A DNA stretch of 58,447 bases from an uncultured Candidatus Saccharibacteria bacterium. GTDB lineage: Bacteria; Patescibacteriota; Minisyncoccia; Phycocordibacterales; UBA5272. Position numbers and translations under genes: made by a program. The notes below the pieces were generated by a model that was given only the letters and a program-made list of their open reading frames with translations, ran no database searches and was not told the DNA's origin. Positions 20,221 to 58,447 of the stretch are shown in pieces (position 1 is the first letter of the stretch; each line of letters begins with the position of its first letter). The stretch covers positions 1-58,447 of the forward strand of contig CAYUDN010000003.1 in assembly GCA_964443675.1 (NCBI GenBank), in the 5' to 3' direction.

Positions 20221-20294
20221 CGCAGACTGCGCGGACAGAGATGCAGGCCAAGAAGCTTGGCTTTGAGATACTGAGCACGGTAGTGCGAATGTAC
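20221..20294 (+). repeat. decayed copy (E1) of the CGCAGAC-repeat element
   Basis: CGCAGACTGCGCGGAC...AAGAAGCTTGGCTTTGAGATACTGAGCACGGTAGTGCGAATGTAC. Near-identical core to 51289-51372 and, inverted, to 45414-45490. Confidence 0.7.
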
Positions 20295-29911: not shown

Positions 29912-30258
29912 AGGAAGCAACACAACCCCGCCAACGGGATCCCGTTTCGGCGGGGTCTTTTTTTGCTTATTTCGTAACTATATCTACTCTAGTTGTTAGA
30001 CTGGTGGAGAGATTCGGCGATTGTTAAGGTGTTTTATTTTATCACTTCGTGATTCATACAACACTCGTGAACTTAGCCTAAAGAAAAAGCGTCAAAATCT
30101 TATAAAGAAAAGTCAGGAAGAAAGCTTTTCTTTATAAGATTTCGTAGACCGCTTTTTCGTTCGAATCTCCACGTATGACACGCAGGTGTCATACTCCAAG
30201 TACTCACTGATAACACAATATCCCATTAGGAGTACCTAAAGGGATATTGTGTTATCAG

Positions 30259-30647
30259 TGGAGGTGGGGAGATTCGAACTCCCGTGTAACAAGGTATGAA
30301 GTATGCATCTACTGTGCGTAGTTTGCTTGGTTGATGTTCGCATGAAGTCTTATGAGCAAACAAAATAACTTCATGCTAAGCATTATTCTTTCGAATGGTG
30401 TGCTATGCAACACATCATTCTACATCTTCTGTTATATTGCCCAGTATCTTCCCGGAGATACGAAAGAAGTGGACACCAGATTGGCGTAGATTACGCGAAT
30501 GCTGGAACTAGCCCTGCCATATAAGGTGAAGGGATAGCCTTGCCAGTTGACTTTGCAACATGGTTTCTCAAACGTTAACGAGTGCTTGAGAACTCTCGGC
30601 ATAGCACATAGTTCATGATCTTATTATCGATGCCAAAGTACACCCCC
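30259..30647 (-). ncRNA. ssrA: tmRNA (SsrA)
   Basis: 5' GGGGGTGTACTTTGGCATCGA pairs with 3' ...GGGAGTTCGAATCTCCCCACCTCCA (tRNA-Ala-like acceptor with G3-U). The candidate tag ORF GCA AAG...GCG TAA (30556 down to 30491) gives AKSTGKAIPSPYMAGLVPAFA. smpB lies immediately upstream. Confidence 0.9.
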
Positions 30648-30649
30648 CT

Positions 30650-30754
30650 AGTTAAGACGACAGACAGACAGACGACAGAGTACAGAAGGACACAGAATTC
30701 GGTTGCAAAGCAACTGAATCGTCTGTTATCTGTAAGCCTGCGGTCTGTGCTCTG
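30650..30754. repeat. ACAGA-rich palindromic element between smpB and ssrA
   Basis: Left arm GACAGACAGACAGACGACAGAGTACAGA, central hairpin TTCGGTTGC-AAA-GCAACTGAA, right arm GTCTGTTATCTGT...CTCTGTTATCT. Confidence 0.7.
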
Positions 30755-33296: not shown

Positions 33297-33439
33297 GTTC
33301 GTCTACCGGGACCAGGAACTTGAGGACCAGTCGTGTATACTGAATCGTATTTTAGGTTCGTTCAGTCTTTGTATTCAAAGTGCGCCCACCTGGACCAGGA
33401 ACCTGTGGACCAGTCGTGTATACTAAGACGTATTTTTAG
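33297..33439 (-). repeat. two tandem tRNA 3'-half-like repeats (H3a 33297-33356, H3b 33380-33439)
   Basis: The two copies are about 48/57 identical to each other. Both are homologous to the 3' half of the adjacent tRNA-Ile (GGACCAG-CGTGTATA...). The tandem period is ~83 bp (33297, 33380, 33463). Confidence 0.8.
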
Positions 33440-33463
33440 TTCATTCGCAGATTATGCTCAAGG

Positions 33464-33536
33464 TGCATCCACCAGGACTCGAACCTGGGACCAGACGTGT
33501 ATAAGACGTCCGCTCTACCAACTGAGCTATGGATGC
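33464..33536 (-). tRNA. tRNA-Ile (anticodon UAU)
   Basis: Hand-folded 73-nt cloverleaf with all four stems fully Watson-Crick: GCATCCA/TGGATGC, GCTC/GAGC, GACGT/ACGTC, CCAGG/CCTGG. Anticodon loop CT-TAT-AC, discriminator A. Confidence 0.85.
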
Positions 33537-34966: not shown

Positions 34967-37606
34967 TTACTCCATATGCACCTGTTCTTTTTTCTTAATT
35001 GTTTCGAGAAGGGTGGGGTGATTCTCTAATCGCTCATCTTCTTTGATAAGTGCATGTGCTTCTTGTTGTGCAACTTCGACTAATTTTGGATTTTTGATTG
35101 CCTCCATTGCAAGGTCACTTATTCCCCACTGCTTGCCTTCTGTTAATGTGCCGATGCCACGTGTGAGCATATCTTGTTCTGCGAGCTCAAAACCATTTTT
35201 TGCTTTGACTAATCCCTTCAAGCGAGTGAAGGTTGTTTCACCAAAGCTTTCTGTGAAGAGATAACAGTAGGATTGGTGTGAAGATCTTCCGACACGGCCA
35301 CGCAACTGGTGGAGTTGCGCAAGACCAAATCTATCCGCATGTTCAATAATAATAACAGTAGCATTAGGAACATTCACACCGACTTCAACCACAGAGGTAG
35401 CAACTAATATGTCTGACTTTTTATCCAAAAAATCTTGCATTACTTCTTCCTTCTCTTCTTTTTTCATTTTGCTGTGAAGAATGTCGACAACGAATTCAGG
35501 GAAGACTTCTTCACTTAGACGCTTCGCTTCTTCTTTGACACTTTTTAGGATTCGCTTCTGTCTCTCCTCTTCATCTTGTTCATCAATGCGAGGGCAGATG
35601 ACATATACCTGTCTTCCTGCTTGCAGTTCTTGGCGTATTGCTTCGTACATTTCGTGACGTTTCGAAGCCTTCACAACCTCCGTGATAATTTTTTTGCGTT
35701 CTTTCGGTACTTCGTCAATTACCGTAAGATCAAGATCACCAAAAATAGTAAGTGCAAGAGTTCGAGGGATAGGGGTGGCAGTCATCGACAACAAGTGAGG
35801 TAACTTGTTCGCAGACCTCGCAGACTGAGGCAGACCTCGCAGACCTATCCGTGCGGTTTCGTACACGACACGTTTTATTTCTATGTCACTACCACCAAAG
35901 TTAACAAGAAAACCAACGGAGTAATCACTTCCTTGTAAATACGTAAGAAGTTGTCTCTCTTCTATGTTTCCAAGAAACTTAATTGACTTGAATTCAATAA
36001 TAACTTTTTCGTCAATGATAAAATCAGGTTGGTAGACACCAACTTTTTTATTGTGGTATACGACAGGTAGTTGTCTCTCCCTTGTGTAAGGAATAGAACG
36101 CTTTTGTAACTCAATTTCAAATGCATTCTGGTACACAAGTTCTTTATGCCCGAGTCCTAGTTGTTTCTTTAGATCAAAACAAATTCCTCGAAGTGTGTAC
36201 GATAATTCTTTATACAAAAACTCATCTGTGTTGTCTGCGTGGTCTGCATTAAGTCTGCGTGGTCTGCGAGAGAGCTCTGCTCTCTGTTTGACGCCGAAGC
36301 GGTGTTGTTCGTCGATGATAATGAGTGCGAGATCTTTGAATGCGACAGACTTCTGGATGAGTGCGTGTGTTCCGATCACGATGGAGATACGACCATCAGT
36401 CAGCCATTTGATGAGCTGCGCGCGTGAGATCGAAGTAGGCTCATCACTTGTTTTGCTCGGGTACTTCTTGCAACCACTTCCTGTTAAGAGACCGATCTCG
36501 ATACCGGTACCCTTGAAGTATTCGATGAAGCTTTCGAAGTGTTGCTTGGCAAGAATTTCTGTTGGTGCCATGTAGGCAACCTGAAGTGGTGTGCCGTGCT
36601 CTTCTTCGCTATTAGAAATAGTTGCATATGCTACCACCGCAGCAACGAACGTCTTGCCACTTCCTACATCACCCTCAAGAAGCCTTCCCATCGGCTTATG
36701 TGCTTTCATGTCATCAAGAATAGTTGCGATCGCATTCTTCTGGGCATTCGTTGGGGTAAAAGGGAAGCGCTTCATGAAGTCATTTAATGACTTTTTGGTG
36801 ATAGTAACTTCGTGTGCAACAGTATGACTGAGCTCTGCGCGCTCTTTCTCTTGTTGTAGTTTGAGATAAAAAATTTCTTCGAAGGCGAAGCGTTTGCGCG
36901 CCGCGATAGTGAGCGCTTCGTTCTTAGGGAAGTGAAGATAAAGAAGCGCGTCTTTGAGGTACGGAAGATGAAGTCGCTTAAGAGTTGCTTCTGGTATTGG
37001 ATCAATGATGTGATCGAGGACTCCTTTTGCAACAGCTTTTTTGATAAGCGTGTAGAGATACAGCGAAGAGACACCTTTGGTCTCGGGGTAGATCGGAGTG
37101 AGGAATGAAGTATCGTTCGAAGCTCCTTTTTCTTCTTTCTGTTCTTGTGATGTTTCGACGTGAGCAAGAAGTGTCTCTTGTGCAGCGGGGATCTCACCCG
37201 TTACTTTTTCGATGCTTGGATTAGAAAGAAGGAAACCTTTGCTGTCTTCTTGTACCACTCCCATGACTTTTACTTTGGTGCCTTCTTGATACATTTTGCC
37301 AATGTAGGCTTGGTTGAACCATATCGCCCGAATGAAGCCGGTGTTGTCTACGATACGTGCCTCGGTAAGTGGTATGTGTCCGCGGAAACTTCTTCGTACT
37401 ACTACTTTTTCCATCACACCATAAATGGTGACAGACTGACCTTTGGTGAGTGACCCGGTGCCTGCGATTTCACGAAGGTCCGCATAGCGAAAAGGGAAGT
37501 GAAAGAGAAGATCTTCTATGGTGGTAATAGAAAGACGATGAAGACCAGCTGCGTGATCTTTGTCTATTTTTGCAAGAGTAGTAATGTTCTCATGAAGAGG
37601 GGACAT
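34967..37606 (-). CDS. recG: ATP-dependent DNA helicase RecG carrying an in-frame 153-codon insertion
   Basis: 879 aa: N-terminal wedge/OB region, motif I GDVGSGKT, motif II DEQH, motif III MTATPIPRT, motif VI QLRGRVGRS. Confidence 0.9.
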   Translation of the reverse strand: MSPLHENITTLAKIDKDHAAGLHRLSITTIEDLLFHFPFRYADLREIAGTGSLTKGQSVTIYGVMEKVVVRRSFRGHIPLTEARIVDNTGFIRAIWFNQAYIGKMYQEGTKVKVMGVVQEDSKGFLLSNPSIEKVTGEIPAAQETLLAHVETSQEQKEEKGASNDTSFLTPIYPETKGVSSLYLYTLIKKAVAKGVLDHIIDPIPEATLKRLHLPYLKDALLYLHFPKNEALTIAARKRFAFEEIFYLKLQQEKERAELSHTVAHEVTITKKSLNDFMKRFPFTPTNAQKNAIATILDDMKAHKPMGRLLEGDVGSGKTFVAAVVAYATISNSEEEHGTPLQVAYMAPTEILAKQHFESFIEYFKGTGIEIGLLTGSGCKKYPSKTSDEPTSISRAQLIKWLTDGRISIVIGTHALIQKSVAFKDLALIIIDEQHRFGVKQRAELSRRPRRLNADHADNTDEFLYKELSYTLRGICFDLKKQLGLGHKELVYQNAFEIELQKRSIPYTRERQLPVVYHNKKVGVYQPDFIIDEKVIIEFKSIKFLGNIEERQLLTYLQGSDYSVGFLVNFGGSDIEIKRVVYETARIGLRGLPQSARSANKLPHLLSMTATPIPRTLALTIFGDLDLTVIDEVPKERKKIITEVVKASKRHEMYEAIRQELQAGRQVYVICPRIDEQDEEERQKRILKSVKEEAKRLSEEVFPEFVVDILHSKMKKEEKEEVMQDFLDKKSDILVATSVVEVGVNVPNATVIIIEHADRFGLAQLHQLRGRVGRSSHQSYCYLFTESFGETTFTRLKGLVKAKNGFELAEQDMLTRGIGTLTEGKQWGISDLAMEAIKNPKLVEVAQQEAHALIKEDERLENHPTLLETIKKKEQVHME
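35810..36268 (-). mobile_element. TIR-bounded GxxExxY (PD-(D/E)XK) module inserted in-frame in recG
   Basis: 36-bp inverted repeats at 35810-35845 and 36233-36268 (31/36 identical with one gap), each made of four CGCAGAC heptads. The interior encodes GHKELVY...DFIIDEKVIIEFK...LLTYL...GFLVNFG. 459 bp = 153 codons with no stop. Confidence 0.75.
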
Positions 37607-37614
37607 GAAAAGTA

Positions 37615-37950
37615 TTAGCGTGCATTTCTTTTACTGAATCTGTCGAAACCATTTCCAGGTTCATTGTAAGGAGATTTAGGTTTTTGTTGTGTTCGACGCA
37701 CTAGTTCTTCCTGTATCGCATCAAGCTCTTTTTCAATTTCTTCCAGTCGGTTAGTTTTTTTCTGTAACCAAAATTCAGAAGAAGCTCTTTCTTCTGGGGT
37801 GTTTGCAGAGTCTGTTTCTTTTCGTAGTTTAACCAGTAAAGGTCGAATATCTTTAAGTTCTTCCAATAGAGTATTTCTTCTACTGGTTATTTCTTCCTGA
37901 CTCATGTTTTCAAAAGTAGTTGTATTGATTTTTGGTTGTTCCATTGGCAT
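37615..37950 (-). CDS. hypothetical charged, probably helical protein (111 aa)
   Basis: ORF with TATACT 8 nt upstream of the ATG. Composition looks coiled-coil-like. Confidence 0.5.
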   Translation of the reverse strand: MPMEQPKINTTTFENMSQEEITSRRNTLLEELKDIRPLLVKLRKETDSANTPEERASSEFWLQKKTNRLEEIEKELDAIQEELVRRTQQKPKSPYNEPGNGFDRFSKRNAR

Positions 37951-39520: not shown

Positions 39521-39632
39521 TAGAGATAGATAACAGATAACAGAGCGTGGGCGGCAGAACACAGACAACAGATAGACAGACAACAGACAAATACAGGGGG
39601 CGGCCGCGAAGCGGCCGCCCCCTGTAGTATCA
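39521..39632. repeat. ACAGA-rich element (one-armed) plus GC hairpin
   Basis: GATAACAGATAACAGA...ACAGACAACAGATAGACAGACAACAGACAAATACAG followed by GGGGGCGGCCGC-GAAG-CGGCCGCCCCC. Confidence 0.7.
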
Positions 39633-43839: not shown

Positions 43840-43971
43840 ATTTTTAAGTATAGTCTAGTTATGCAAAAGAAAAAGGGCTTCATCAACAGGGTATGTTGAT
43901 GAAGCCAAAAAAGTATCCGACGCACTAGCATGCCACGAGAATCTCTCTTGGGTTCTTAATGGTTGACTAGA

Positions 43972-45039
43972 TCAGTTGGAGAATACACCGAATGCCTTGA
44001 CAAGGCCGATTGAGAGTGGCAAAATCGTGTCTGTTCCATCACTCTTCCGCTTGAAATGCTGTGTCCCCCAATCCGTGGTACTATTCCAGACCCATCCGGC
44101 GCCAATCTCAGCGAATCTGCTCCACCCGGCGACGGGTGGGACGTCCGTCGGTGCAAAAACCCAAGTCGTATCCGAGAGTACCGGGTAAGCACCCTCGGAA
44201 TCGTCGTACTCGGTAATCTGGTTCGTGACCGGACTCCAGACGAGGTTTTGCCTTGCTCCGCTTACACGATCCTGACACGAGAGCTTGATGGCCCCGGTTG
44301 CAAGCTTGACCCGGTTGAAGCCACAGTTGAAGAGAGGCCATTCGCCTGTCTGGAACTTTGTCATGTTGACTGCCTTTTCGGCAGTGAATGTCACTGTTCC
44401 TGTGGTTGCGCCAGAAGTGAGCACAAGCTTCATCGGGTACCAACCGTAGAGGTCGGTGTTGGCAAGGATCACATCTTGGTAGTGCAACACTGCGTACGGG
44501 GTGATGTACGAGGTGAGTTGGCCGACGTAGGTGGGGGTGGTCCCGAAGGGACCACCCATCACATAGACACCACCGTCTGTGGTGCCGCCAGTTCCATCAG
44601 CAACGCCAAGGTACACACCGGTGTCCGGGTAGTACCGATAGCGATACTGCTGGAATGTGAGCGTGTCCGTGTGCTTCGGGAAGTACATCGCATAGGATGC
44701 TTCCCCAAAGTTGAGGAGTTGCTCGATGGCGTCAGCGGGGGAGGCGGCCCCGTAAGGGGACGCCGGACCGGTGGACGTCTGTGTCGCTGCGAGCGCGAAC
44801 TTCTTCGCGTCTGCGGTCGCCTGCGGAGCAGTCAACGCGATCGGGGCGATCGCGAAGTTCTGCACAGTCACAGGACCCGTTGCGGCCGTGCCAGTCGTGT
44901 CGGTGTTGCCACCGAGAGACTGGACGGTCTGTTGGGTGACGTCACCGCCGCCACCGCAAGCGGTGAGCACGAGGGCTGCCGCAAGGATGAGAGCGGGAGG
45001 AAGAGCGCGAGCGAAGCGAGCGCGGTTGATCGTGGTCAT
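43972..45039 (-). CDS. GC-rich lipoprotein (356 aa), probable horizontal acquisition
   Basis: Start moved to ATG 45039, 8 nt after AAGGAGG. Lipobox signal MTTINRARFARALPPALILAAALVLTAC. Two sampled 60-nt lines gave 63% and 65% G+C, against 28% in a sampled line of the neighbouring gene. Confidence 0.75.
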   Translation of the reverse strand: MTTINRARFARALPPALILAAALVLTACGGGGDVTQQTVQSLGGNTDTTGTAATGPVTVQNFAIAPIALTAPQATADAKKFALAATQTSTGPASPYGAASPADAIEQLLNFGEASYAMYFPKHTDTLTFQQYRYRYYPDTGVYLGVADGTGGTTDGGVYVMGGPFGTTPTYVGQLTSYITPYAVLHYQDVILANTDLYGWYPMKLVLTSGATTGTVTFTAEKAVNMTKFQTGEWPLFNCGFNRVKLATGAIKLSCQDRVSGARQNLVWSPVTNQITEYDDSEGAYPVLSDTTWVFAPTDVPPVAGWSRFAEIGAGWVWNSTTDWGTQHFKRKSDGTDTILPLSIGLVKAFGVFSN

Positions 45040-45174
45040 GGTAGTGACCTCCTTTGAATGGTTGAATGTTGAAAGAGCTTGGTGCGGAGTATGTTTTGTG
45101 GACATTTTCCGCGATTTTTTTGTCCGTATCCAGTGTACCATAGTGGTGACAGGGGACAACAGACGGCTTATACT

Positions 45175-45203
45175 ATTATACAGGAAATTTGTTGACTTGT
45201 CAA
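45175..45203 (-). promoter_or_regulatory. perfect consensus sigma70 promoter for the lipoprotein gene
   Basis: On the minus strand: TTGACA (45203-45198), exactly 17 nt, TATAAT (45180-45175). The -35 lies inside the palindrome GTTGAC-TT-GTCAAC. Confidence 0.7.
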
Positions 45204-45217
45204 CTCTCCTTCTGGTT

Positions 45218-45310
45218 GCGGACAAAACGCGGACAGACGCGGAAGTGACGCGGAAAAATACAGGCGAAAGGCGGAAAAGACGCGGACGAAACGCAGACAA
45301 AACGCGGAAA
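45218..45310. repeat. phased tandem array of about nine CGCGGA(C/A) units
   Basis: Units start at about 45217, 45228, 45238, 45249, 45270, 45281, 45292 and 45303, with one degenerate unit near 45260. The mean period is about 10.75 bp. Confidence 0.8.
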
Positions 45311-45413
45311 ACATACAGAAGGACAGCTGAGAATGATTTGAATATTCTTTTGTGGTTAGTTCTTAGGTTCATTGTTTTTTGTTTGGGCGGTCGCGAAGCG
45401 ACTGCTCCCTGGA

Positions 45414-45490
45414 TATATTTTCTGCGTAGTCTGCGTTAGTACATTCGCACTGCTGTGCTCAGTATCTCGAAGCCAAGCTTCTTGATCTGT
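45414..45490 (-). repeat. decayed copy (E3, inverted) of the CGCAGAC-repeat element
   Basis: Its reverse complement reads CAAGAAGCTTGGCTTCGAGATACTGAGCACAGCAGTGCGAATGTAC-TAA-CGCAGACTACGCAGAAAATATA. Confidence 0.7.
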
Positions 45491-45550
45491 GTTTTGTTGT
45501 CTAATCTGCGATAGTATTGACAGCATTCAAGCAAGATGTATACTGTAATC

Positions 45551-45602
45551 ATCACCACGAAAGAGACCCTTATGAAGTTCCGTCTTCATTGGGGGCTTTT
45601 TT
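45551..45602 (+). ncRNA. candidate small RNA A, convergent with NYN gene 1
   Basis: TTGACA 45517-45522, 16 nt, TATACT 45539-45544. A hairpin (ATGAAG/CTTCAT plus a CCC/GGG extension) is followed by T6, which abuts the stop codon of the NYN gene. Confidence 0.4.
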
Positions 45603-46092
45603 ATTGTAGGTTATTTTTCTGATCGTTGATATAAAATATTTTTGCTGCTGTCCTCTTTAGTAAGATGGAGCATTTCTTTTCTCTTGCTGGGGAGATGACA
45701 CCAAGTAGTCTTTTTTCTGAAGCAACGAAAGCAACAAGTGGAGCATAATCACCGTCACTCGAAACAAGTAGCATCTTATCGTATGTGTGAGTGTAGAAAT
45801 CTTGTGTAGCCTTAAGAACAAGGTCAGCATCGCAATTGCCTTTTGGTTTGCCGTTGTTATCGTATACCACTTCTTTAAAAATCAAAACATAACCACACTC
45901 TTGTAGATGGCTATACAGCTTGCCATACTTAGGGACATTTCCTATAAAAAGGTATGCAGTAGTGATGTTGAACTTTTCTGTAAGCCAGACCCTTAGTTTC
46001 TTGTAGTCAAGCTCCCAACTAAGACTGTTCATTCCTTGGTGCAAGTTGGCACCATCTATGTATGCATAGTTGTTTTCTTTACGCGATTTCAT
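45601..46092 (-). CDS. NYN domain (LabA/DUF88-like) predicted RNase, paralog 1
   Basis: Start set at ATG 46092 (MKSRKENNYAYIDGANL...LLVSSDGDYAPLV). Confidence 0.75.
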   Translation of the reverse strand: MKSRKENNYAYIDGANLHQGMNSLSWELDYKKLRVWLTEKFNITTAYLFIGNVPKYGKLYSHLQECGYVLIFKEVVYDNNGKPKGNCDADLVLKATQDFYTHTYDKMLLVSSDGDYAPLVAFVASEKRLLGVISPAREKKCSILLKRTAAKIFYINDQKNNLQ

Positions 46093-46224
46093 AACAACAA
46101 GTGTATCATGAAGGGAGTAGAGCACAGATGACAGATAACAGACCGCTTCGCTTACAGATGACAGATCGCTACGCTGACAGAATACAGACGACAGACCGCT
46201 CCTCTGTATTTATCTGTACTCTGT
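46069..46224 (-). repeat. 156-bp cassette, copy 1 (155/156 identical to 46822-46977)
   Basis: Covers the first 8 codons of the NYN gene, the upstream 5' region, and an ACAGA-rich element. Confidence 0.9.
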
Positions 46225-46271
46225 TGTCTATCCGCGATTGACATTTTTTTTTATCTCTTTATACTGTGTAC

Positions 46272-46329
46272 ATATCCACACGAAAAGGGGTCCAAAAGGT
46301 GAAGGTGCCTAAGGCACCCTTTTCTTTTT
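46272..46329 (+). ncRNA. candidate small RNA B, convergent with and overlapping the 3' end of NYN gene 2
   Basis: TTGACA 46238-46243, 16 nt, TATACT 46260-46265. Hairpin GGTGCC-TAA-GGCACC plus a T-run. The 5' part (ATCCACACGAAAAGGGG) resembles RNA A (ATCACCACGAAAGAGA). Confidence 0.4.
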
Positions 46330-46845
46330 GTCATTTTTCATTGCTATTTTTTCTTGTACTGCACTATCATCAAGATAGGCGAAATATTTGTTGGAGAGTT
46401 CGTTATAAAGAGAAGATTTAAATTTTTTATTAGGGAACAATATTTTCCGGAATCTTTCTTTCTTCACTAAGTAGTCAACAACCTTTTTATAGTCACCGTC
46501 TCCAGAAACAAGAAGAACTTTGTTGAAATTTTCGCTGTTATCAATTATGTTCTTCATTATTTCAAAGACGATATCAGTATCCACGTTCCCTTTCTTCTGT
46601 GATTGTAGTGCAGTGTTATGCTCTTTAAACAAGACTATAAAACCAGCTTTTTGTAGTTTTGTGTAAAGATTTTGTTGGTCTTCGTCGATATATCCAAAAA
46701 AGTAGTACGCTTCTACGACGTGATATTTGTCTCGCAGGTAAGTTCGAAGTCGATAATGATCTGTTTTCCAATTATTGATAGTAGTACCAAGGTGTAGGTT
46801 TTGTCCATCGATGAAGGCGAGGTTGTTTTCTTTACGCGATTTCAT
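46309..46845 (-). CDS. NYN domain (LabA/DUF88-like) predicted RNase, paralog 2
   Basis: Start set at ATG 46845 (MKSRKENNLAFIDGQNL...LLVSGDGDYKKVV). Confidence 0.75.
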   Translation of the reverse strand: MKSRKENNLAFIDGQNLHLGTTINNWKTDHYRLRTYLRDKYHVVEAYYFFGYIDEDQQNLYTKLQKAGFIVLFKEHNTALQSQKKGNVDTDIVFEIMKNIIDNSENFNKVLLVSGDGDYKKVVDYLVKKERFRKILFPNKKFKSSLYNELSNKYFAYLDDSAVQEKIAMKNDKKKRVP

Positions 46846-46977
46846 AACAACAAGTGTATCATGAAGGGAGCAGAGCACAGATGACAGATAACAGACCGCT
46901 TCGCTTACAGATGACAGATCGCTACGCTGACAGAATACAGACGACAGACCGCTCCTCTGTATTTATCTGTACTCTGT
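46822..46977 (-). repeat. 156-bp cassette, copy 2
   Basis: Differs from 46069-46224 by a single T/C. Confidence 0.9.
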
Positions 46978-47090
46978 CAGCAAAGCGGGTCTGTACTCTG
47001 TTGTCTATCTGTATTCTTTCAGCGAAGCGATCTGTACTCTGTTGTCTGTCTATCTGTACTCTGTAGTCTTTCAGCACAGCGGGCTGTGTA
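46879..47090. repeat. large ACAGA/TCTGT palindromic element in a divergent promoter region
   Basis: The left half is rich in ACAGA units. The right half carries four exact TCTGTACTCTGT 12-mers (46966, 46990, 47031, 47053). Confidence 0.8.
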
Positions 47091-47133: not shown

Positions 47134-48843
47134 ATGAAAAAAGTAGCATATATTTTGTTCCCTTTACTCACGTGTACAACGCTATCACTTGCTTCTGCTC
47201 TTGATGCGGTGCAACCAGCTCCAACTTCACCGGTATCTGTTACCAAGGTATCTGTTGTTGCTGATGTTAACTTGGTGAATCTTATTTTTTCGGAAAAAGA
47301 TAACACGTATTCAGGATCCTTCGCACTTCAAGCAAAGATGGGTAAGCAGAACAATATCGCCTATGGTGTGGTGGTAATGGGAAGTAAAGGCCAAGTGCTT
47401 TCTTTTGAAAAGCTTGGCACTGTTCCTTCCCTCCAGCAAGGTGAGCTTCTCACTAAGTCATTCACGTATAGACTTCCTCCGCTCAAAGAAAGTAAAGTCG
47501 ACGTACTTCTTGTTGCAGAAAATGAAGAAGGTCTTCGTCTTAGTACTCGCATTCTTGCAAAAGATCGCTCTGTTACTGCCGCTTCACCAACTATTACGTG
47601 TGCAGTAAACAAAGAAGAGGTTGCATCGTGTACTTTTAAAGAATCAGCGACGATATCTATTGGCCAGTACACAGCACTCTTTGGTCCAACGATTGGTATG
47701 CCTTCCTCTGTGATAGTGAAAAAAGGAGAGACCAAAACATTCCCACTTGTCGACAAACCAGGCAGGTATATTTTTGTAGCTACTAACGTAGCAACTAAAG
47801 AAATGGTTGTAGTGCCAACAGCAATTGCAGGTTCTTATGGACAAATCAAAAATGCTACCGTGGTAAGCAAGGGTCCAGGTAAGATTGCTCTTATAGCATA
47901 TGTTCGTGTAAGCCCTTTTAAGGGTTCTAAGATTGCCTACTCACTAAAAGCACATGATGGAAGTCTTTGTGGTGAAGCAGTGCGTCCAATCACAGATCTT
48001 GCACTTGAAGAAGAATTCAACACCTCTTGCAAGGAGGGAGTAGTAACGCTTTCACTCTTTGGACAAGATGGTACGTTGCTAGACCAGAAGACAGAAGACT
48101 TCTCTACTATTGTACTTGCGCCGAAAGGAACACAGTCTGCTATGACGCCAGCAAGGCTTGCAGTTGGAATTCTCATTATTCTTGTGCTTATTAGTATTGC
48201 CTTTATGATGTTCAAAAAATATTCTGCAAAATCAGTAGTAGTATCAGCACTCTTTTTGATGATGGTGGTGAGTGGAGTGGGGAGGGGGTATGCGGCGTCG
48301 TATTTCGTCAGAGTCTGGGGCCCTCCTTTGTCAATGGCGGAAATTGCGTTTATGTGTAACGTAAGTGTTACCTCAGACAAGGCTACTTACTCTCCCGGAG
48401 AGTCTATGATCGTCACAGGAACTGTCTCTCTTTCAAGGGATGCTGGAGCAGACAGCGGGGATACTGGGTATTGTTATCTTTCTTACTTTAGCTCTTTCGA
48501 TGTAACTTCTGGTGCTTCTTATAATTTTGCACAAACAAGTGGTGCTTTTTTGGACACCATCACTGTTCTTGAAAACACAGGACAGGCAACGCTCAGCGCT
48601 CCTGTTGGTATAGGTAGTCATTATCTCGGGACGCGTACAATTGTTGAGGCATGGCGCGGGGGTTCAAGATGGACAACCGATAGCCAGACAGGGAATGTAA
48701 CTTTCGATGTTGTCGACGCAACGCCAACAGTCAATCTTAACTTCGGACAACTTCTCAACAAAGCAAAGAGTTTTGCAGGTGCATATTCTAAGAAGCTTGA
48801 CGGATCATTGATACCGGTTGCACATGCGGCAGGAGGTAGATAA
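47134..48843 (+). CDS. hypothetical secreted/membrane protein (569 aa)
   Basis: Start at ATG 47134, 7 nt after TATACT. Signal peptide (ILFPLLTCTTLSLASA) and two central TM helices. Confidence 0.65.
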   Translation: MKKVAYILFPLLTCTTLSLASALDAVQPAPTSPVSVTKVSVVADVNLVNLIFSEKDNTYSGSFALQAKMGKQNNIAYGVVVMGSKGQVLSFEKLGTVPSLQQGELLTKSFTYRLPPLKESKVDVLLVAENEEGLRLSTRILAKDRSVTAASPTITCAVNKEEVASCTFKESATISIGQYTALFGPTIGMPSSVIVKKGETKTFPLVDKPGRYIFVATNVATKEMVVVPTAIAGSYGQIKNATVVSKGPGKIALIAYVRVSPFKGSKIAYSLKAHDGSLCGEAVRPITDLALEEEFNTSCKEGVVTLSLFGQDGTLLDQKTEDFSTIVLAPKGTQSAMTPARLAVGILIILVLISIAFMMFKKYSAKSVVVSALFLMMVVSGVGRGYAASYFVRVWGPPLSMAEIAFMCNVSVTSDKATYSPGESMIVTGTVSLSRDAGADSGDTGYCYLSYFSSFDVTSGASYNFAQTSGAFLDTITVLENTGQATLSAPVGIGSHYLGTRTIVEAWRGGSRWTTDSQTGNVTFDVVDATPTVNLNFGQLLNKAKSFAGAYSKKLDGSLIPVAHAAGGR

Positions 48844-49000
48844 CAGATCGCTCCGCTTACAGACAACAGAGTACAGACATACAGATAAAGACAAGGGACG
48901 GCCGCGAAGCGGCCGCCCCTCTGCATTTGTCTGTATTCTGTAAGCGTAGCGATCTGTACTCTGTTATCTGTCAGCGAAGCGGTCTCTTGTCTACAATAAT
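48840..49000. repeat. ACAGA-rich palindromic element around a GC hairpin
   Basis: Left arm ACAGATCGCTCCGCTTACAGACAACAGAGTACAGA, core GGGACGGCCGC-GAAG-CGGCCGCCCC, right arm TCTGTAAGCGTAGCGATCTGTACTCTGTTATCTGT. Confidence 0.85.
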
Positions 49001-51288: not shown

Positions 51289-51372
51289 CGCAGACTACGC
51301 AGACTGATGCAGACCACGCAGATCGAGAAGCTTGGCTTCGAGATACTGAGTACAGCAGTGCGAATGTGCTAA
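51289..51372 (+). repeat. solo end (E2) of the CGCAGAC-repeat element with a truncated GxxExxY 5' remnant
   Basis: CGCAGACTACGCAGACTGATGCAGACCACGCAGAT is about 32/36 identical to the recG insertion repeat. The following 48 nt translate to EKLGFEILSTAVRMC*, compared with DEFLYKELSYTLRGIC in the recG insert. Confidence 0.7.
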
Positions 51373-57967: not shown

Positions 57968-58171
57968 AGGGGCTACTTCTTACTTTATGCAAAGTAAGTA
58001 GTTATCGTAGTCATTTGAAAAAATAATACGAAGCTACTTTTGAAAAATATACATCAGTTTATTTTTCAAAAGGTGACGCTTCAAATTACATTACACAATA
58101 AAGTGCTTGTCCGTTACTTTTTTTCGGAAAAGTAATTAGGACGTTTTTGTTTTTCTTTTGTCACACTCTAT

Positions 58172-58447
58172 ATAAATAGAGTTTGATCCTAGCTCAGGAT
58201 GAACGCTGGCGGTGTGGATAAGGCATGCAAGTTGAACGGAACTAATCACATGGAAGTACTAAGCAAGTTAAAGTAGCAATACGGCAATAAGCGAAGTATG
58301 GAAGCGTGACAGTTTAGTAGCAAACGAGGTAGTAATATTTAGGAACGCACCCCGAAGTCGTGAATAGCCTTTCGAAAGGAAGAGTAATACACGATGGTAC
58401 CGCAAGGTTAAAGATTTATCGCTTCGGGAGCGGCTTAAACAGTATCA
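58172..58447 (+). rRNA. rrs: 16S ribosomal RNA, 5' part (runs off the window)
   Basis: AGAGTTTGATCCTAGCTCAGGATGAACGCTGGCGGTGTGGATAAGGCATGCAAGTTGAACGG. The helix-6/V1 region looks longer than in E. coli, and the GGCGGACGGGTGAGTAA region is divergent (GTAGCAAACGAGGTAGTAAT). Confidence 0.9.

What the first reader, a model, noticed from the sequence alone, without database searches (positions are those of the whole stretch)
35810..36268. In-frame 459-bp insertion in recG: a GxxExxY PD-(D/E)XK nuclease module bounded by 36-bp inverted repeats of CGCAGAC heptads
recG reads as one 879-aa ORF. Between helicase motif II (IIIDEQHRFG) and motif III (MTATPIPRT), where RecG proteins normally have only a short loop, there are 153 extra codons. 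The DNA boundaries are inverted repeats. The coding strand from 36268 down to 36233 reads CGCAGACC ACGCAGAC TTAAT GCAGACC ACGCAGAC. The plus strand at 35810-35845 reads CGCAGACC TCGCAGAC TGAG GCAGACC TCGCAGAC C. These match at 31/36 positions with one gap. The interior (ELSYTLRGICFDLKKQLGLGHKELVYQNAFEIEL...DFIIDEKVIIEFKS...LLTYL...GFLVNFG) matches the normally free-standing ~125-aa GxxExxY family. The element is exactly 153 codons with no stop, so the repeats are translated as linkers (RRPRRLNADHAD and GLRGLPQSARSA). No intein junction residues are present. This looks either like a TIR-bounded selfish element that landed in-frame in a repair helicase, or like a domesticated nuclease-helicase fusion. 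I do not know of a description of GxxExxY modules as TIR-bounded in-frame insertions.
Basis: partly seen in the sequence, partly recalled or inferred. Interest (0 to 1): 0.8.

Follow-up and report, generated by a model that had tools for sequence, protein, structure and literature searches.

The report
In-frame selfish nuclease cassette in recG
The extra 459 bases inside this bacterium's recG repair-helicase gene are a copy of a mobile nuclease-encoding cassette that is translated as part of the host protein, and the same kind of cassette sits in-frame in many other housekeeping genes of related bacteria; I found no description of this kind of element.

Summary
recG (34967-37606, minus strand) is one 879-aa ORF. 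Between helicase motifs II and III it carries a full GxxExxY / PDDEXK_3 nuclease domain (E about 1e-31). Inverted arrays of the heptad CGCAGAC bound the domain.

The insert is not an old lineage-specific domain.
- Among Paceibacteria/Nomurabacteria RecG orthologs, 23 filled alleles are scattered across the host tree.
- Some have empty sisters only 3-6% diverged.
- Sister hosts carry different insert subtypes.
- Insert and host distances are nearly uncorrelated.

Three close filled/empty pairs show locally diverged exon codons next to the insert. One allele keeps only a heptad scar.

The same cassette occurs far beyond recG. It has sense heptads C[GA]CNGAN at 10-11 nt spacing upstream and their reverse complement downstream. 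It sits in-frame in LepA-type GTPases, GatB, DHFR, RtcB, LeuRS, transketolase and glycosyltransferases, and free-standing between genes. The nuclease core is under purifying selection and both junctions stay open.

Best reading: a selfish, non-splicing, in-frame nuclease cassette that spreads by homing-like recombination. How it moves, and what the arrays do, are inferred, not shown. I found no prior description.

The parts
34967..37606 (-). recG ORF (879 aa), the host gene of the cassette
   Evidence: ORF list; Pfam RecG_wedge, DEAD, Helicase_C and RecG_dom3_C, and NCBIfam RecG equivalogs; orthologs at 60-77% identity.
36302..36313 (-). Helicase motif II (DEQH, residues 432-435), upstream host flank
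   Evidence: Coordinates; invariant in the RecG alignment.
35810..36268 (-).
   Evidence: Absent from close orthologs such as P0022 and P0023 (74% identity).
36224..36268 (-). 5' arm: four CGCAGAC/GCAGAC units plus a degenerate fifth (GCAGACAACACAGA), translated as RRPRRLNADHADNT
   Evidence: AlphaFold confidence is below 50 for residues 449-462.
35864..36211 (-). GxxExxY / PD-(D/E)XK nuclease core (RecG residues 466-581). Motifs: GHKELVY at 36131-36151, PDF at 36020-36028, EFK at 35987-35995, VNFG at 35894-35905
   Evidence: HMM matches; motif coordinates; confident alpha/beta fold; motifs invariant across 12 RecG inserts; dN/dS 0.09-0.38.
35810..35845 (-). 3' arm: four GTCTGC(G) units on the coding strand (the reverse complement of the 5' units), translated as GLRGLPQSARSA
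   Evidence: In the RNA fold it pairs with the 5' arm as a 31-bp interrupted stem, z = -6.4. AlphaFold confidence is below 50 for residues 584-599.
35771..35782 (-). Helicase motif III (TATP, residues 609-612), downstream host flank
51289..51372 (+). Solo copy of the same heptad array (32 of 36 positions identical to the recG 5' arm) followed by a 47-nt conserved core, in the 3' UTR of secF. That it belongs to the cassette family is inferred.
20221..20294 (+). Second heptad array plus 47-nt core, directly after the rpsR stop codon
45420..45510 (-). Third copy of the 47-nt core (45436-45482) with heptads on both sides; close to an 11-nt-period array at 45218-45308

Best explanation
The 459-bp segment is a copy of a selfish mobile cassette. 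The cassette is a GxxExxY-type PD-(D/E)XK nuclease ORF with no start or stop codon of its own. Inverted arrays of a short phased repeat flank it (here CGCAGAC; in the family generally C[GA]CNGAN every 10-11 nt). It sits in the loop between helicase motifs II and III of recG. It is read through by the ribosome and stays in the mature protein as an independently folded domain on two disordered linkers, so RecG presumably keeps working. Cassettes of this family have entered and left this same recG site many times in Paceibacteria/Nomurabacteria. The most likely route is homing-like. The nuclease, made as part of RecG, breaks or nicks an insert-free allele, for example incoming or sister DNA. Repair then copies the cassette from a filled allele together with a few tens of bases of flanking exon. 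The cassette later decays by internal deletion, leaving heptad scars, and the site can be invaded again.

Shown here: family membership, the arms, read-through frames, purifying selection, patchy and incongruent distribution, scars, and the locally diverged exon codons.

Inferred: nuclease activity and its target, the homing step, and the role of the arrays. For the arrays I favour binding sites and/or an arm-to-arm stem in single-stranded DNA that brings the two host flanks together. I hold that only weakly.
For: (1) Family membership: PF13366 E 1.6e-31 and TIGR04256 E 6.4e-33. The motifs GxxExxY, PDF and ExK are invariant in RecG inserts.
(2) Presence and absence: 23 of 119 RecG relatives are filled at the same site. 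In one-genome-per-species data, 5 of 31 close recG loci are filled.
(3) Patchiness: filled alleles are scattered over the host NJ tree. Their empty nearest neighbours lie at distance 0.03-0.06 (P0017/P0049, P0020/P0059, P0014/P0055, P0010/P0063, P0011/P0065). Sister hosts carry different insert subtypes (P0005/P0012, host distance 0.08). Host and insert distances correlate at Spearman 0.15. In some pairs the insert is much more similar than the host (insert dN 0.27 against host dN 0.66), and in others the reverse.
(4) Three close filled/empty pairs have flanks 90-95% identical. The native loop codons are replaced, and the adjacent exon codons (for example PHLLS) carry clustered synonymous differences. 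No target-site duplication is seen.
(5) Decay: P0045/L059 keeps one CGCAGACC unit and three TCCGCG units without the nuclease.
(6) The phenomenon is general. The best matches to the insert among 1.8 billion protein representatives are mostly embedded in DHFR, LepA/EF-type GTPases, GatB, RtcB, LeuRS, transketolase, AsnB, RibF, GT2, GT4 and Wzy_C.
(7) A tblastn-based scan, which does not depend on gene calling, gave 80 loci. Thirty-eight are embedded with open frames of more than 70 aa on both sides, 35 are free-standing and 7 are partial or terminal fusions.
(8) Arms: 3.2 sense units per 100 nt upstream and 2.7 antisense units downstream, against a background of about 0.2. Spacing peaks at 10-11 nt. 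The two arms of one element share the same heptad variant (0.39 against 0.087 in permutations, maximum 0.187). The arrays also lie in non-coding flanks of free-standing copies.
(9) Selection: dN/dS of the nuclease core is 0.09-0.38 and no copy has a stop codon.
(10) Structure: the core is folded with confidence and the linkers have pLDDT below 50.
Against: There is no experimental or expression evidence, so translation through the insert is inferred only from conserved frames. The trees are neighbour-joining without support values. The co-conversion signal rests on three lineages, and the region next to the insert is somewhat more variable even between empty alleles. Classical homing does not predict inverted arrays at the element ends, nor dispersed solo arrays in the same genome; those features look more transposon-like or REP/RAYT-like. 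No near-identical inserts were found in different hosts (the closest insert pairs differ by about 20%), so no recent donor was caught. The fold search gives only generic PD-(D/E)XK neighbours, so substrate specificity is unknown.
Confidence: 0.6

Rival explanations
1. A transposon-like element. The nuclease binds the phased subterminal heptad arrays at both ends, excises or copies the cassette, and inserts it at many sites. Only in-frame insertions in tolerant surface loops, or insertions between genes, survive. The recG site is a permissive loop rather than a recognised target.
For: The inverted arrays with one-helical-turn spacing resemble transposase-binding subterminal repeats. There are many unrelated host genes and intergenic copies. 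Nuclease-less arrays of the same heptad lie elsewhere in this window, one of them identical to the recG arm at 32 of 36 positions. Cargo-less palindromic arrays are also present. In the domain tree, inserts from different host genes are partly intermixed.
Against: A roughly 120-aa PD-(D/E)XK hydrolase has no known strand-transfer chemistry, and no DDE, HUH, serine or tyrosine recombinase domain is present. No target-site duplication appears in three filled/empty pairs. The native loop codons are replaced rather than split, and adjacent exon codons differ. Divergent insert lineages use the same recG site in RecG proteins as distant as those of P0269 and P0284. Of the copies lying inside genes, almost all are open on both sides. 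Selection could produce that pattern, but it would need many failed insertions, and none were seen.
Confidence: 0.2
2. A domesticated nuclease-helicase fusion. The nuclease domain gives RecG a host-beneficial activity, such as cutting branched DNA, is inherited vertically, and is often lost.
For: The nuclease core is under purifying selection and the frame is kept. A helicase plus a PD-(D/E)XK nuclease is a common functional pairing (AddAB and AdnAB appear among the fold neighbours). There are weak sequence hints to the junction-resolving T7 endonuclease I.
Against: The same cassette with the same arms sits in LepA, GatB, DHFR, RtcB, LeuRS, glycosyltransferases and between genes. Insert and host trees are uncoupled, and sister hosts carry different subtypes. 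Most close relatives manage without it: 26 of 31 species-level loci are empty. The arms are conserved as DNA in different reading frames and in non-coding DNA.
Confidence: 0.08
3. An RNA-level intervening sequence. The two arms pair in the transcript, and the insert is cut out and the halves rejoined, or bypassed, so that mature RecG lacks the domain.
For: The arms form a 31-bp interrupted stem closing the 390-nt loop in both the MFE and centroid folds, z = -6.4. Intervening sequences bounded by stems are known in bacterial rRNA (my own knowledge). Rtc-type ligases exist in these lineages; one RtcB is itself a host of a cassette.
Against: Removal at the RNA level would not require the downstream junction to stay in frame and free of stops. 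Yet all 7 recG cassettes read first (543-582 nt, all multiples of three) and all 38 embedded loci from the gene-call-independent scan are open on both sides. No Rfam intron or ribozyme family matches. No rRNA context was found in 40 free-standing loci. No bacterial mRNA cut-and-rejoin pathway for such stems is known (my own knowledge).
Confidence: 0.05

Closest known systems
Inteins with homing endonuclease domains
   Same: Both are selfish, in-frame and stop-free insertions at conserved sites of housekeeping and repair proteins, between catalytic motifs. Both encode a nuclease. Both show patchy presence and absence at one fixed site and phylogenies uncoupled from the host.
   Different: There is no Hint/protein-splicing domain and there are no splice-junction residues (sequence). 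The insert apparently stays in the mature protein on flexible linkers. The nuclease is PD-(D/E)XK rather than LAGLIDADG or HNH. Inverted heptad arrays flank the ORF, which inteins lack.
Free-standing or intron-encoded homing endonuclease genes, including PD-(D/E)XK types such as I-Ssp6803I and the Vsr-like I-Bth0305I
   Same: Both show site-specific allele polymorphism, flanking co-conversion-like tracts and a cycle of invasion, decay and loss. I-Bth0305I appears as a weak fold neighbour (rank 41).
   Different: There is no intron ribozyme and no separate gene; the ORF is fused to the host protein at both ends. Cleavage of the empty allele is untested. The terminal inverted arrays are not a feature of homing endonuclease genes.
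Rickettsia palindromic elements (RPEs) and other in-frame MITEs
   Same: These are palindromic, inverted-repeat-bounded elements that insert in-frame into unrelated protein-coding genes and are retained in the protein (PMC10969869). The heptad-only scar in P0045 resembles such an element.
   Different: RPEs are about 150 bp and encode no enzyme. This cassette carries a conserved nuclease under purifying selection and re-uses the same site in orthologs.
REP sequences and their RAYT genes (REPtrons)
   Same: A nuclease gene is flanked by inverted copies of a short repeat that is also dispersed in intergenic regions and 3' UTRs of the same genome.
   Different: RAYTs are HUH/Y1 transposase-like proteins encoded by free-standing genes. 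Here the enzyme is a PD-(D/E)XK nuclease embedded in a host protein. Any link between the dispersed arrays and the nuclease is untested.
Free-standing GxxExxY proteins (TIGR04256 / PF13366 PDDEXK_3)
   Same: The domain is the same, with full-length HMM matches and intact motifs. Free-standing copies have the same inverted phased arrays.
   Different: The family is catalogued as small (~125 aa) proteins of unknown function ('Unknown' in PMC3424549). The embedded, read-through form and the arrays are not described there.

Membership tests
GxxExxY / PDDEXK_3 nuclease family (TIGR04256, PF13366) | Full-length HMM match above the curated cut-off | tested here: met
   PF13366: 109.5 bits against a cut-off of 22, profile positions 2-117 of 117. 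TIGR04256: 113.6 bits against a cut-off of 35, positions 2-116 of 116.
GxxExxY / PDDEXK_3 nuclease family (TIGR04256, PF13366) | GxxExxY motif and PD-(D/E)XK catalytic residues (E, D, ExK) | tested here: met
   GHKELVY, PDF and EFK are present, invariant in 12 RecG inserts, and matched by motif patterns in 33 of 38 embedded copies. Catalytic activity was not tested.
GxxExxY / PDDEXK_3 nuclease family (TIGR04256, PF13366) | Small free-standing protein of about 125 aa | tested here: not met
   Here the domain is internal to an 879-aa RecG and has no start or stop codon of its own.
RecG helicase | Wedge domain, SF2 helicase motifs and RecG C-terminal domain; equivalog HMM | tested here: met
   Pfam domains. 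NF008168 scores 705.8 bits against a cut-off of 718, just below because the match is split by the insert. Identity to insert-free RecG orthologs is 60-78%.
Intein | Hint domain and splice-junction residues (N-terminal Cys/Ser; C-terminal His-Asn followed by Cys/Ser/Thr) | tested here: not met
   No Hint or intein Pfam hit at E <= 0.01. The junctions read ..LS|RRPRR.. and ..RSAN|KLPH...
Group I / group II intron | Ribozyme secondary structure; an ORF not required to be in frame with the downstream exon | tested here: not met
   No Rfam family reaches gathering score in recG. Both junctions are in frame in every embedded copy examined.
Homing endonuclease gene (functional class) | Presence/absence polymorphism at one fixed site, with element phylogeny uncoupled from the host | tested here: met
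   The trees have no support values.
Homing endonuclease gene (functional class) | Co-conversion of flanking exon sequence | tested here: inconclusive
   Three close filled/empty pairs show clustered differences within roughly 20-100 nt of the insert. There are few control pairs, and the region is somewhat variable anyway.
Homing endonuclease gene (functional class) | The nuclease cleaves the insert-free allele at or near the insertion site | not testable with these tools
   Needs biochemistry.
IS element / DNA transposon | Terminal inverted repeats | tested here: met
   The arms match at 31 of 36 positions. Inverted heptad arrays occur at both ends in 47 of 78 elements, counting those with at least two units at each end.
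IS element / DNA transposon | A transposase (DDE, HUH, serine or tyrosine recombinase) | tested here: not met
   The only element-encoded domain is PDDEXK_3.
IS element / DNA transposon | Target-site duplication | tested here: not met
   None was seen at the junctions of L004/L008, L140/L141 or L142/L143. The native loop codons are replaced rather than duplicated.
MITE / Rickettsia palindromic element | Short non-autonomous element without an enzyme gene | tested here: not met
   The cassette encodes a conserved nuclease. Only its decay products (P0045/L059) fit this description.
REP/RAYT (REPtron) | A gene flanked by inverted copies of a repeat that is also dispersed in the genome | tested here: inconclusive
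   Three further CGCAGAC arrays and several NACAGAY arrays lie in this 58-kb window. The rest of the genome is not available.
REP/RAYT (REPtron) | HUH/Y1 transposase-like protein | tested here: not met
   The protein is a PD-(D/E)XK nuclease.
rRNA intervening sequence (IVS) | Located within an rRNA gene helix | tested here: not met
   The cassette lies in a protein-coding gene. None of 40 free-standing loci has an rRNA match.

The most novel reading that the evidence does not exclude
GxxExxY cassettes are a previously unrecognised class of mobile element. They are nuclease-encoding 'domain parasites' that enter conserved housekeeping genes in-frame and rely neither on RNA splicing nor on protein splicing. 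Instead they remain in the mature protein on disordered linkers encoded by their own terminal repeat arrays. The phased, concertedly evolving inverted heptad arrays are the element's cis-acting sites. They would work as nuclease-binding sites and/or as a stem that juxtaposes the host flanks during recombination. They would also seed nuclease-less palindromic arrays across the genome, in a REP/RAYT-like relationship.
Probability: 0.5. Interest if true: 0.9.

Novelty: categorically new. Interest (0 to 1): 0.85.

Why it matters
If this holds, it adds a third way for selfish nuclease genes to live inside essential genes. Introns are removed from the RNA and inteins from the protein; this element would simply be tolerated as an extra domain.

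- It would give a function and a life style to a large family (8,976 representatives at E <= 0.001) listed as 'Unknown' in the 2012 PD-(D/E)XK survey.
- It would explain oversized and mis-named housekeeping proteins in CPR/Patescibacteria annotations. RecG fusions, for example, are named 'GxxExxY protein' by two sources.
- It offers natural examples of permissive domain-insertion sites with built-in linkers.
- It may provide a new set of sequence- or structure-specific nucleases.
- The phased heptad arrays and their dispersed nuclease-less copies make the idea directly testable.

Tried and rejected
- **Intein:** no Hint domain or junction residues.
- **Self-splicing intron or known RNA family:** nothing at Rfam gathering score in recG.
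- **rRNA-IVS-like context for free-standing copies:** 0 of 40 loci.
- **Old vertically inherited domain:** rejected by the scattered distribution, by different subtypes in sister hosts, and by a Spearman correlation of 0.15 between host and insert distances.
- **Heptads as a codon-level linker repeat:** the dominant period is 10-11 nt, not a multiple of three. The same DNA repeat is read in different frames (RRPRR, ADHAD, TQT; GLRGL, SASV). The arrays also lie in non-coding flanks.
- **Target-site duplication:** none found.
- **A close solved structure that would indicate substrate:** only generic PD-(D/E)XK neighbours (Cas4 SSO0001, lambda exonuclease, AddB/AdnB, MGME1) at E >= 2e-3 and TM <= 0.46. 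By sequence, only T7 endonuclease I at E 0.6.
- **Other GxxExxY copies in the window:** none by tblastn.
- **Word-index protein search with the insert alone:** it returned only free-standing proteins and missed the fusions. The exhaustive search found them.
- **Literature:** searches for GxxExxY, PDDEXK_3/PF13366, and in-frame nuclease insertions in CPR/Patescibacteria found no description.
- **Surface exposure of the loop:** I could not measure it because model coordinates are not exposed. Only confidence and secondary structure were available.
Full report
**1.

The minus strand carries one 879-aa ORF at 34967..37606. Pfam finds the RecG wedge, DEAD, Helicase_C and RecG_dom3_C domains. The NCBIfam RecG equivalog NF008168 scores 706 bits against a cut-off of 718, in two pieces that stop at residue 448 and resume near residue 595.

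The 153 codons at 35810-36268 match PF13366 PDDEXK_3 (E 1.6e-31) and TIGR04256 GxxExxY (E 6.4e-33) over the full length of both profiles. The GHKELVY, PDF and EFK motifs are intact.

The two ends are inverted repeats made of four GCAGAC-type units each. They match at 31 positions with one gap. The pattern GCAGACCNCGCAGAC occurs 8 times in the window against 0.14 expected by chance.

The net gain is therefore about 146 residues, and the native loop has been replaced.

**2. Organism and orthologs**

The closest RecG proteins come from Candidatus Nomurabacteria / Paceibacterota metagenome-assembled genomes, which belong to the CPR/Patescibacteria. Of the 119 relatives that could be aligned, 23 carry a PDDEXK_3 insert at exactly this position. 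The rest do not, including P0022 and P0023 at 74% identity. In the collection with one genome per species, 5 of 31 close recG loci are filled.

**3. The insert is not vertically inherited**

I removed the insert and built a neighbour-joining tree of the hosts. The filled alleles are scattered across it.
- Several have empty nearest neighbours at distance 0.03-0.06: P0017/P0049, P0020/P0059 and P0066, P0014/P0055, P0010/P0063, P0011/P0065.
- Sister hosts carry different insert subtypes: P0005 against P0012 at host distance 0.08, and likewise P0006/P0021 and P0007/P0013.
- Host and insert distances correlate at Spearman 0.15.
- At the codon level, some pairs have inserts far more alike than their hosts (insert dN 0.27 against host dN 0.66). 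Other pairs show the opposite (insert 0.33 against host 0.06).

These trees have no support values. The pattern is nevertheless too widespread to depend on single branches.

**4. The arms are conserved as DNA, not as peptide**

All seven recG cassettes whose DNA I read first are in frame. These are the window, L001, L003, L004, L005, L006 and L030. The DEQHRFG-to-MTATP stretch is 543-582 nt in each, always a multiple of three. All have CGCAGA(C/A)- or GCGGAA-type units upstream and their reverse complement downstream.

The linker peptides differ because the same DNA repeat is read in different frames: RRPRR, ADHAD or TQT upstream, and GLRGL..SARSA or SASV.PR.SAS downstream.

I then measured the generalised unit C[GA]CNGAN in 78 elements recovered from metagenomes.

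| Region (100 nt) | Orientation | Units per embedded element |
|---|---|---|
| 5' of the domain | sense | 3.2 |
| 3' of the domain | antisense | 2.7 |
| 5' or 3' of the domain | the opposite orientation | about 0.3 |
| Random windows in the same loci | either | about 0.2 |

Spacing peaks sharply at 10-11 nt, with a second peak at 20-22 nt. That is one helical turn and not a multiple of three.

The variable positions differ from element to element, giving variants such as CGCAGAC, CGCGGAA, CGCGGAT, CGCTGAT and CACTGAT. The two arms of one element, however, share the same variant. The within-element match is 0.39, against a permutation mean of 0.087 and a maximum of 0.187.

In free-standing copies part of the arrays lies in non-coding DNA.

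In the window the arms can pair as a 31-bp interrupted stem closing the 390-nt loop, with z = -6.4.

**5. The phenomenon reaches far beyond recG**

An exhaustive search of 1.8 billion protein representatives with the 153-aa segment found 8,976 relatives at E <= 0.001. The best-scoring ones are mostly embedded inside larger proteins. Pfam identifies these hosts:
- DHFR, LepA and other EF-type GTPases (between the switch I region and DTPGH), GatB, RtcB and LeuRS;
- transketolase, asparagine synthase and riboflavin kinase;
- GT2 and GT4 glycosyltransferases, Wzy_C ligases and pilin-like proteins.

Their linkers show the same translated-repeat signatures, such as TQTDAD, RINAD, SASSQRESA and SVLSPLKSA.

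A tblastn-based metagenome scan, which does not depend on gene calling, returned 80 loci.

| Class | Loci |
|---|---|
| Embedded, open frame of more than 70 aa on both sides | 38 (22 RecG, 10 LepA-like, 6 other) |
| Free-standing | 35 |
| Partial or terminal fusions | 7 |

Free-standing copies are wedged between unrelated operon genes. None of 40 lies in an rRNA gene.

In a domain tree, embedded copies form a large group apart from most free-standing ones. Inserts of one host gene mostly cluster, but RecG inserts fall into at least five groups.

**6. Selection**

The nuclease core has dN/dS of 0.09 (L004-L006) to 0.38. No copy has an internal stop. Motif patterns for the catalytic residues match in 33 of 38 embedded copies. 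The domain is therefore maintained by selection, and so is read-through at both junctions.

**7. Gain and loss at the DNA level**

Three close filled/empty pairs have flanks 90-95% identical: L004/L008, L140/L141 and L142/L143. In each pair:
- the native loop codons are replaced;
- the exon codons next to the cassette, for example those for PHLLS, carry clustered synonymous differences;
- there is no target-site duplication.

The few empty/empty control pairs at similar divergence show a smaller dip in identity. This is what co-conversion from a diverged donor allele would give, but three lineages are a small sample.

One 'empty' allele (P0045/L059) keeps one CGCAGACC unit and three TCCGCG units with no nuclease. 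It is a decay product. P0022/L002 keeps CAGACGCAGAC at the site.

**8. Structure**

The isolated segment folds with confidence as a two-helix plus beta-sheet PD-(D/E)XK core (residues 20-135, mostly pLDDT above 90). Both linkers are disordered.

In the full RecG model the core (residues 466-581) is confident. Residues 449-462 and 584-599 have pLDDT below 50, and they lie between the motif II strand and the motif III strand.

Fold neighbours are generic: Cas4, lambda exonuclease, AddB/AdnB and MGME1, all at E >= 2e-3. By sequence the only solved relative is T7 endonuclease I at E 0.6. A Phage_endo_I hit at E 9e-5 appears for one family member. These are hints and nothing more.

**9. How it most likely works**

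I conclude that this is a selfish cassette that is read through and tolerated as an extra domain, and that it has invaded and left the same recG loop repeatedly. A recombination-dependent, homing-like spread fits several results:
- the fixed site;
- the replaced loop;
- the diverged adjacent codons;
- the lack of a target duplication;
- the lack of any recombinase.

The arrays do not belong to classical homing. Three of their properties point to a cis-acting role at the nucleic-acid level: one-turn phasing, strict orientation, and concerted evolution between the arms. Two candidate roles are binding sites for the nuclease, and an arm-to-arm stem in single-stranded DNA that brings the host flanks together during strand exchange. 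I cannot choose between them.

Three rivals remain.
- A transposon-like mechanism (confidence 0.2). The arrays and the dispersed nuclease-less copies support it. The chemistry and the junctions argue against it.
- A domesticated fusion (0.08). This fits poorly with the same cassette sitting in a dozen unrelated proteins.
- Removal at the RNA level (0.05). This fits poorly with strict maintenance of the downstream frame.

**10. Comparison with known systems**

The cassette behaves like an intein or a homing endonuclease gene in its choice of site and in its population pattern. It lacks the defining splicing apparatus of inteins and introns.

It resembles Rickettsia palindromic elements in being palindromic, in-frame and retained in proteins (PMC10969869). 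Unlike them it encodes an enzyme.

It resembles REP/RAYT in that a nuclease gene is flanked by inverted copies of a dispersed repeat. The enzyme class differs and the link is untested.

The GxxExxY family itself is known only as small proteins of unknown function (PMC3424549). I found no paper that describes embedded copies, their arrays or their mobility. Absence from this library is not proof. Some databases already label such RecG fusions 'GxxExxY protein'.

**11. Verdict**

The case opens onto a widespread and apparently undescribed kind of mobile element. Nuclease activity, its target, the mobility mechanism and the role of the arrays all remain inferred.

Noticed in passing
window 51289-51372 (+), 20221-20294 (+), 45420-45510 (-): Three copies of a CGCAGAC-type heptad array joined to a conserved 47-nt core (AGAAGCTTGGCTTCGAGATACTGAGCACAGCAGTGCGAATGTACTAA). 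Each lies in a 3' UTR just after a stop codon (secF, rpsR) and before a terminator hairpin. The secF copy matches the recG 5' arm at 32 of 36 positions. It could be a nuclease-less relative of the cassette or a separate small element.
   Followed up: partly
window 45218-45308: An array of 8.5 copies of an 11-nt unit (GCGGACAAAAC), the GCGGA variant of the heptad. It lies between the GC-rich gene at 43972-45372 and the 47-nt-core copy, in inverted orientation to the heptads at 45420-45435.
   Followed up: partly
window 46124-46235 and 46877-47075: Two near-identical intergenic blocks in which a run of NACAGAY units is followed by its reverse complement. These are cargo-less hairpins (DNA fold z = -5.3 for 46875-47015). 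Each lies upstream of one of two paralogous genes (45601-46125 and 46309-46878, minus strand) whose N-termini are almost identical.
   Followed up: partly
window 39530-39620 and 48840-48915: ACAGAC/ACAGAT unit arrays, each immediately followed by the same GC-rich terminator hairpin (GGCGGCCGCGAAGCGGCCGCC). Heptad arrays seem to be a general feature of this genome's 3' UTRs.
   Followed up: no
window 43900-45100: A GC-rich island (53-62% against 42% for the window). It holds a gene for a putative lipoprotein (MTTINRARFARALPPALILAAALVLTACGG...) and long ORFs on both strands. It is probably foreign DNA, and heptad arrays border it on one side.
   Followed up: no
L001 2654-3004; L140-L143 1-304; L058 1908-2273: A small 23S_rRNA_IVP / bAvd-type four-helix-bundle gene sits directly upstream of recG, overlapping its start, in several related lineages both filled and empty. 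Another lies near a free-standing GxxExxY gene. The window instead has a 111-aa coiled-coil ORF (37615-37950) at that position.
   Followed up: no
L059 (P0045), motif II-III loop; L022; L002: Some 'empty' recG alleles retain heptad scars. L059 has one CGCAGACC and three TCCGCG units. L022 has CAGTCAGAATCTGC. L002 has ACAGACGCAGAC. These suggest imprecise loss of earlier cassettes.
   Followed up: partly
L126 1501-1866 and L133 1501-1878; also P0334-P0349: Some cassettes lack a stop codon and read directly into a downstream gene for a secreted or membrane protein. They form N-terminal fusions rather than internal insertions.
   Followed up: no
window 33305-33503 with tRNA-Ile(TAT) at 33462-33536: An 83-nt tandem repeat (2.4 copies, 77% matches) overlaps the tRNA-Ile gene. 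It may be a partial tRNA duplication, such as those left by integrating elements.
   Followed up: no
window 30256-30647 (-), 30655-30679, 58171-58447 (+): There is a tmRNA gene with an adjacent (AGAC)n run. A 16S rRNA gene starts at the right end of the window. No insertion is visible in the 277 nt of the 16S gene that are present.
   Followed up: no
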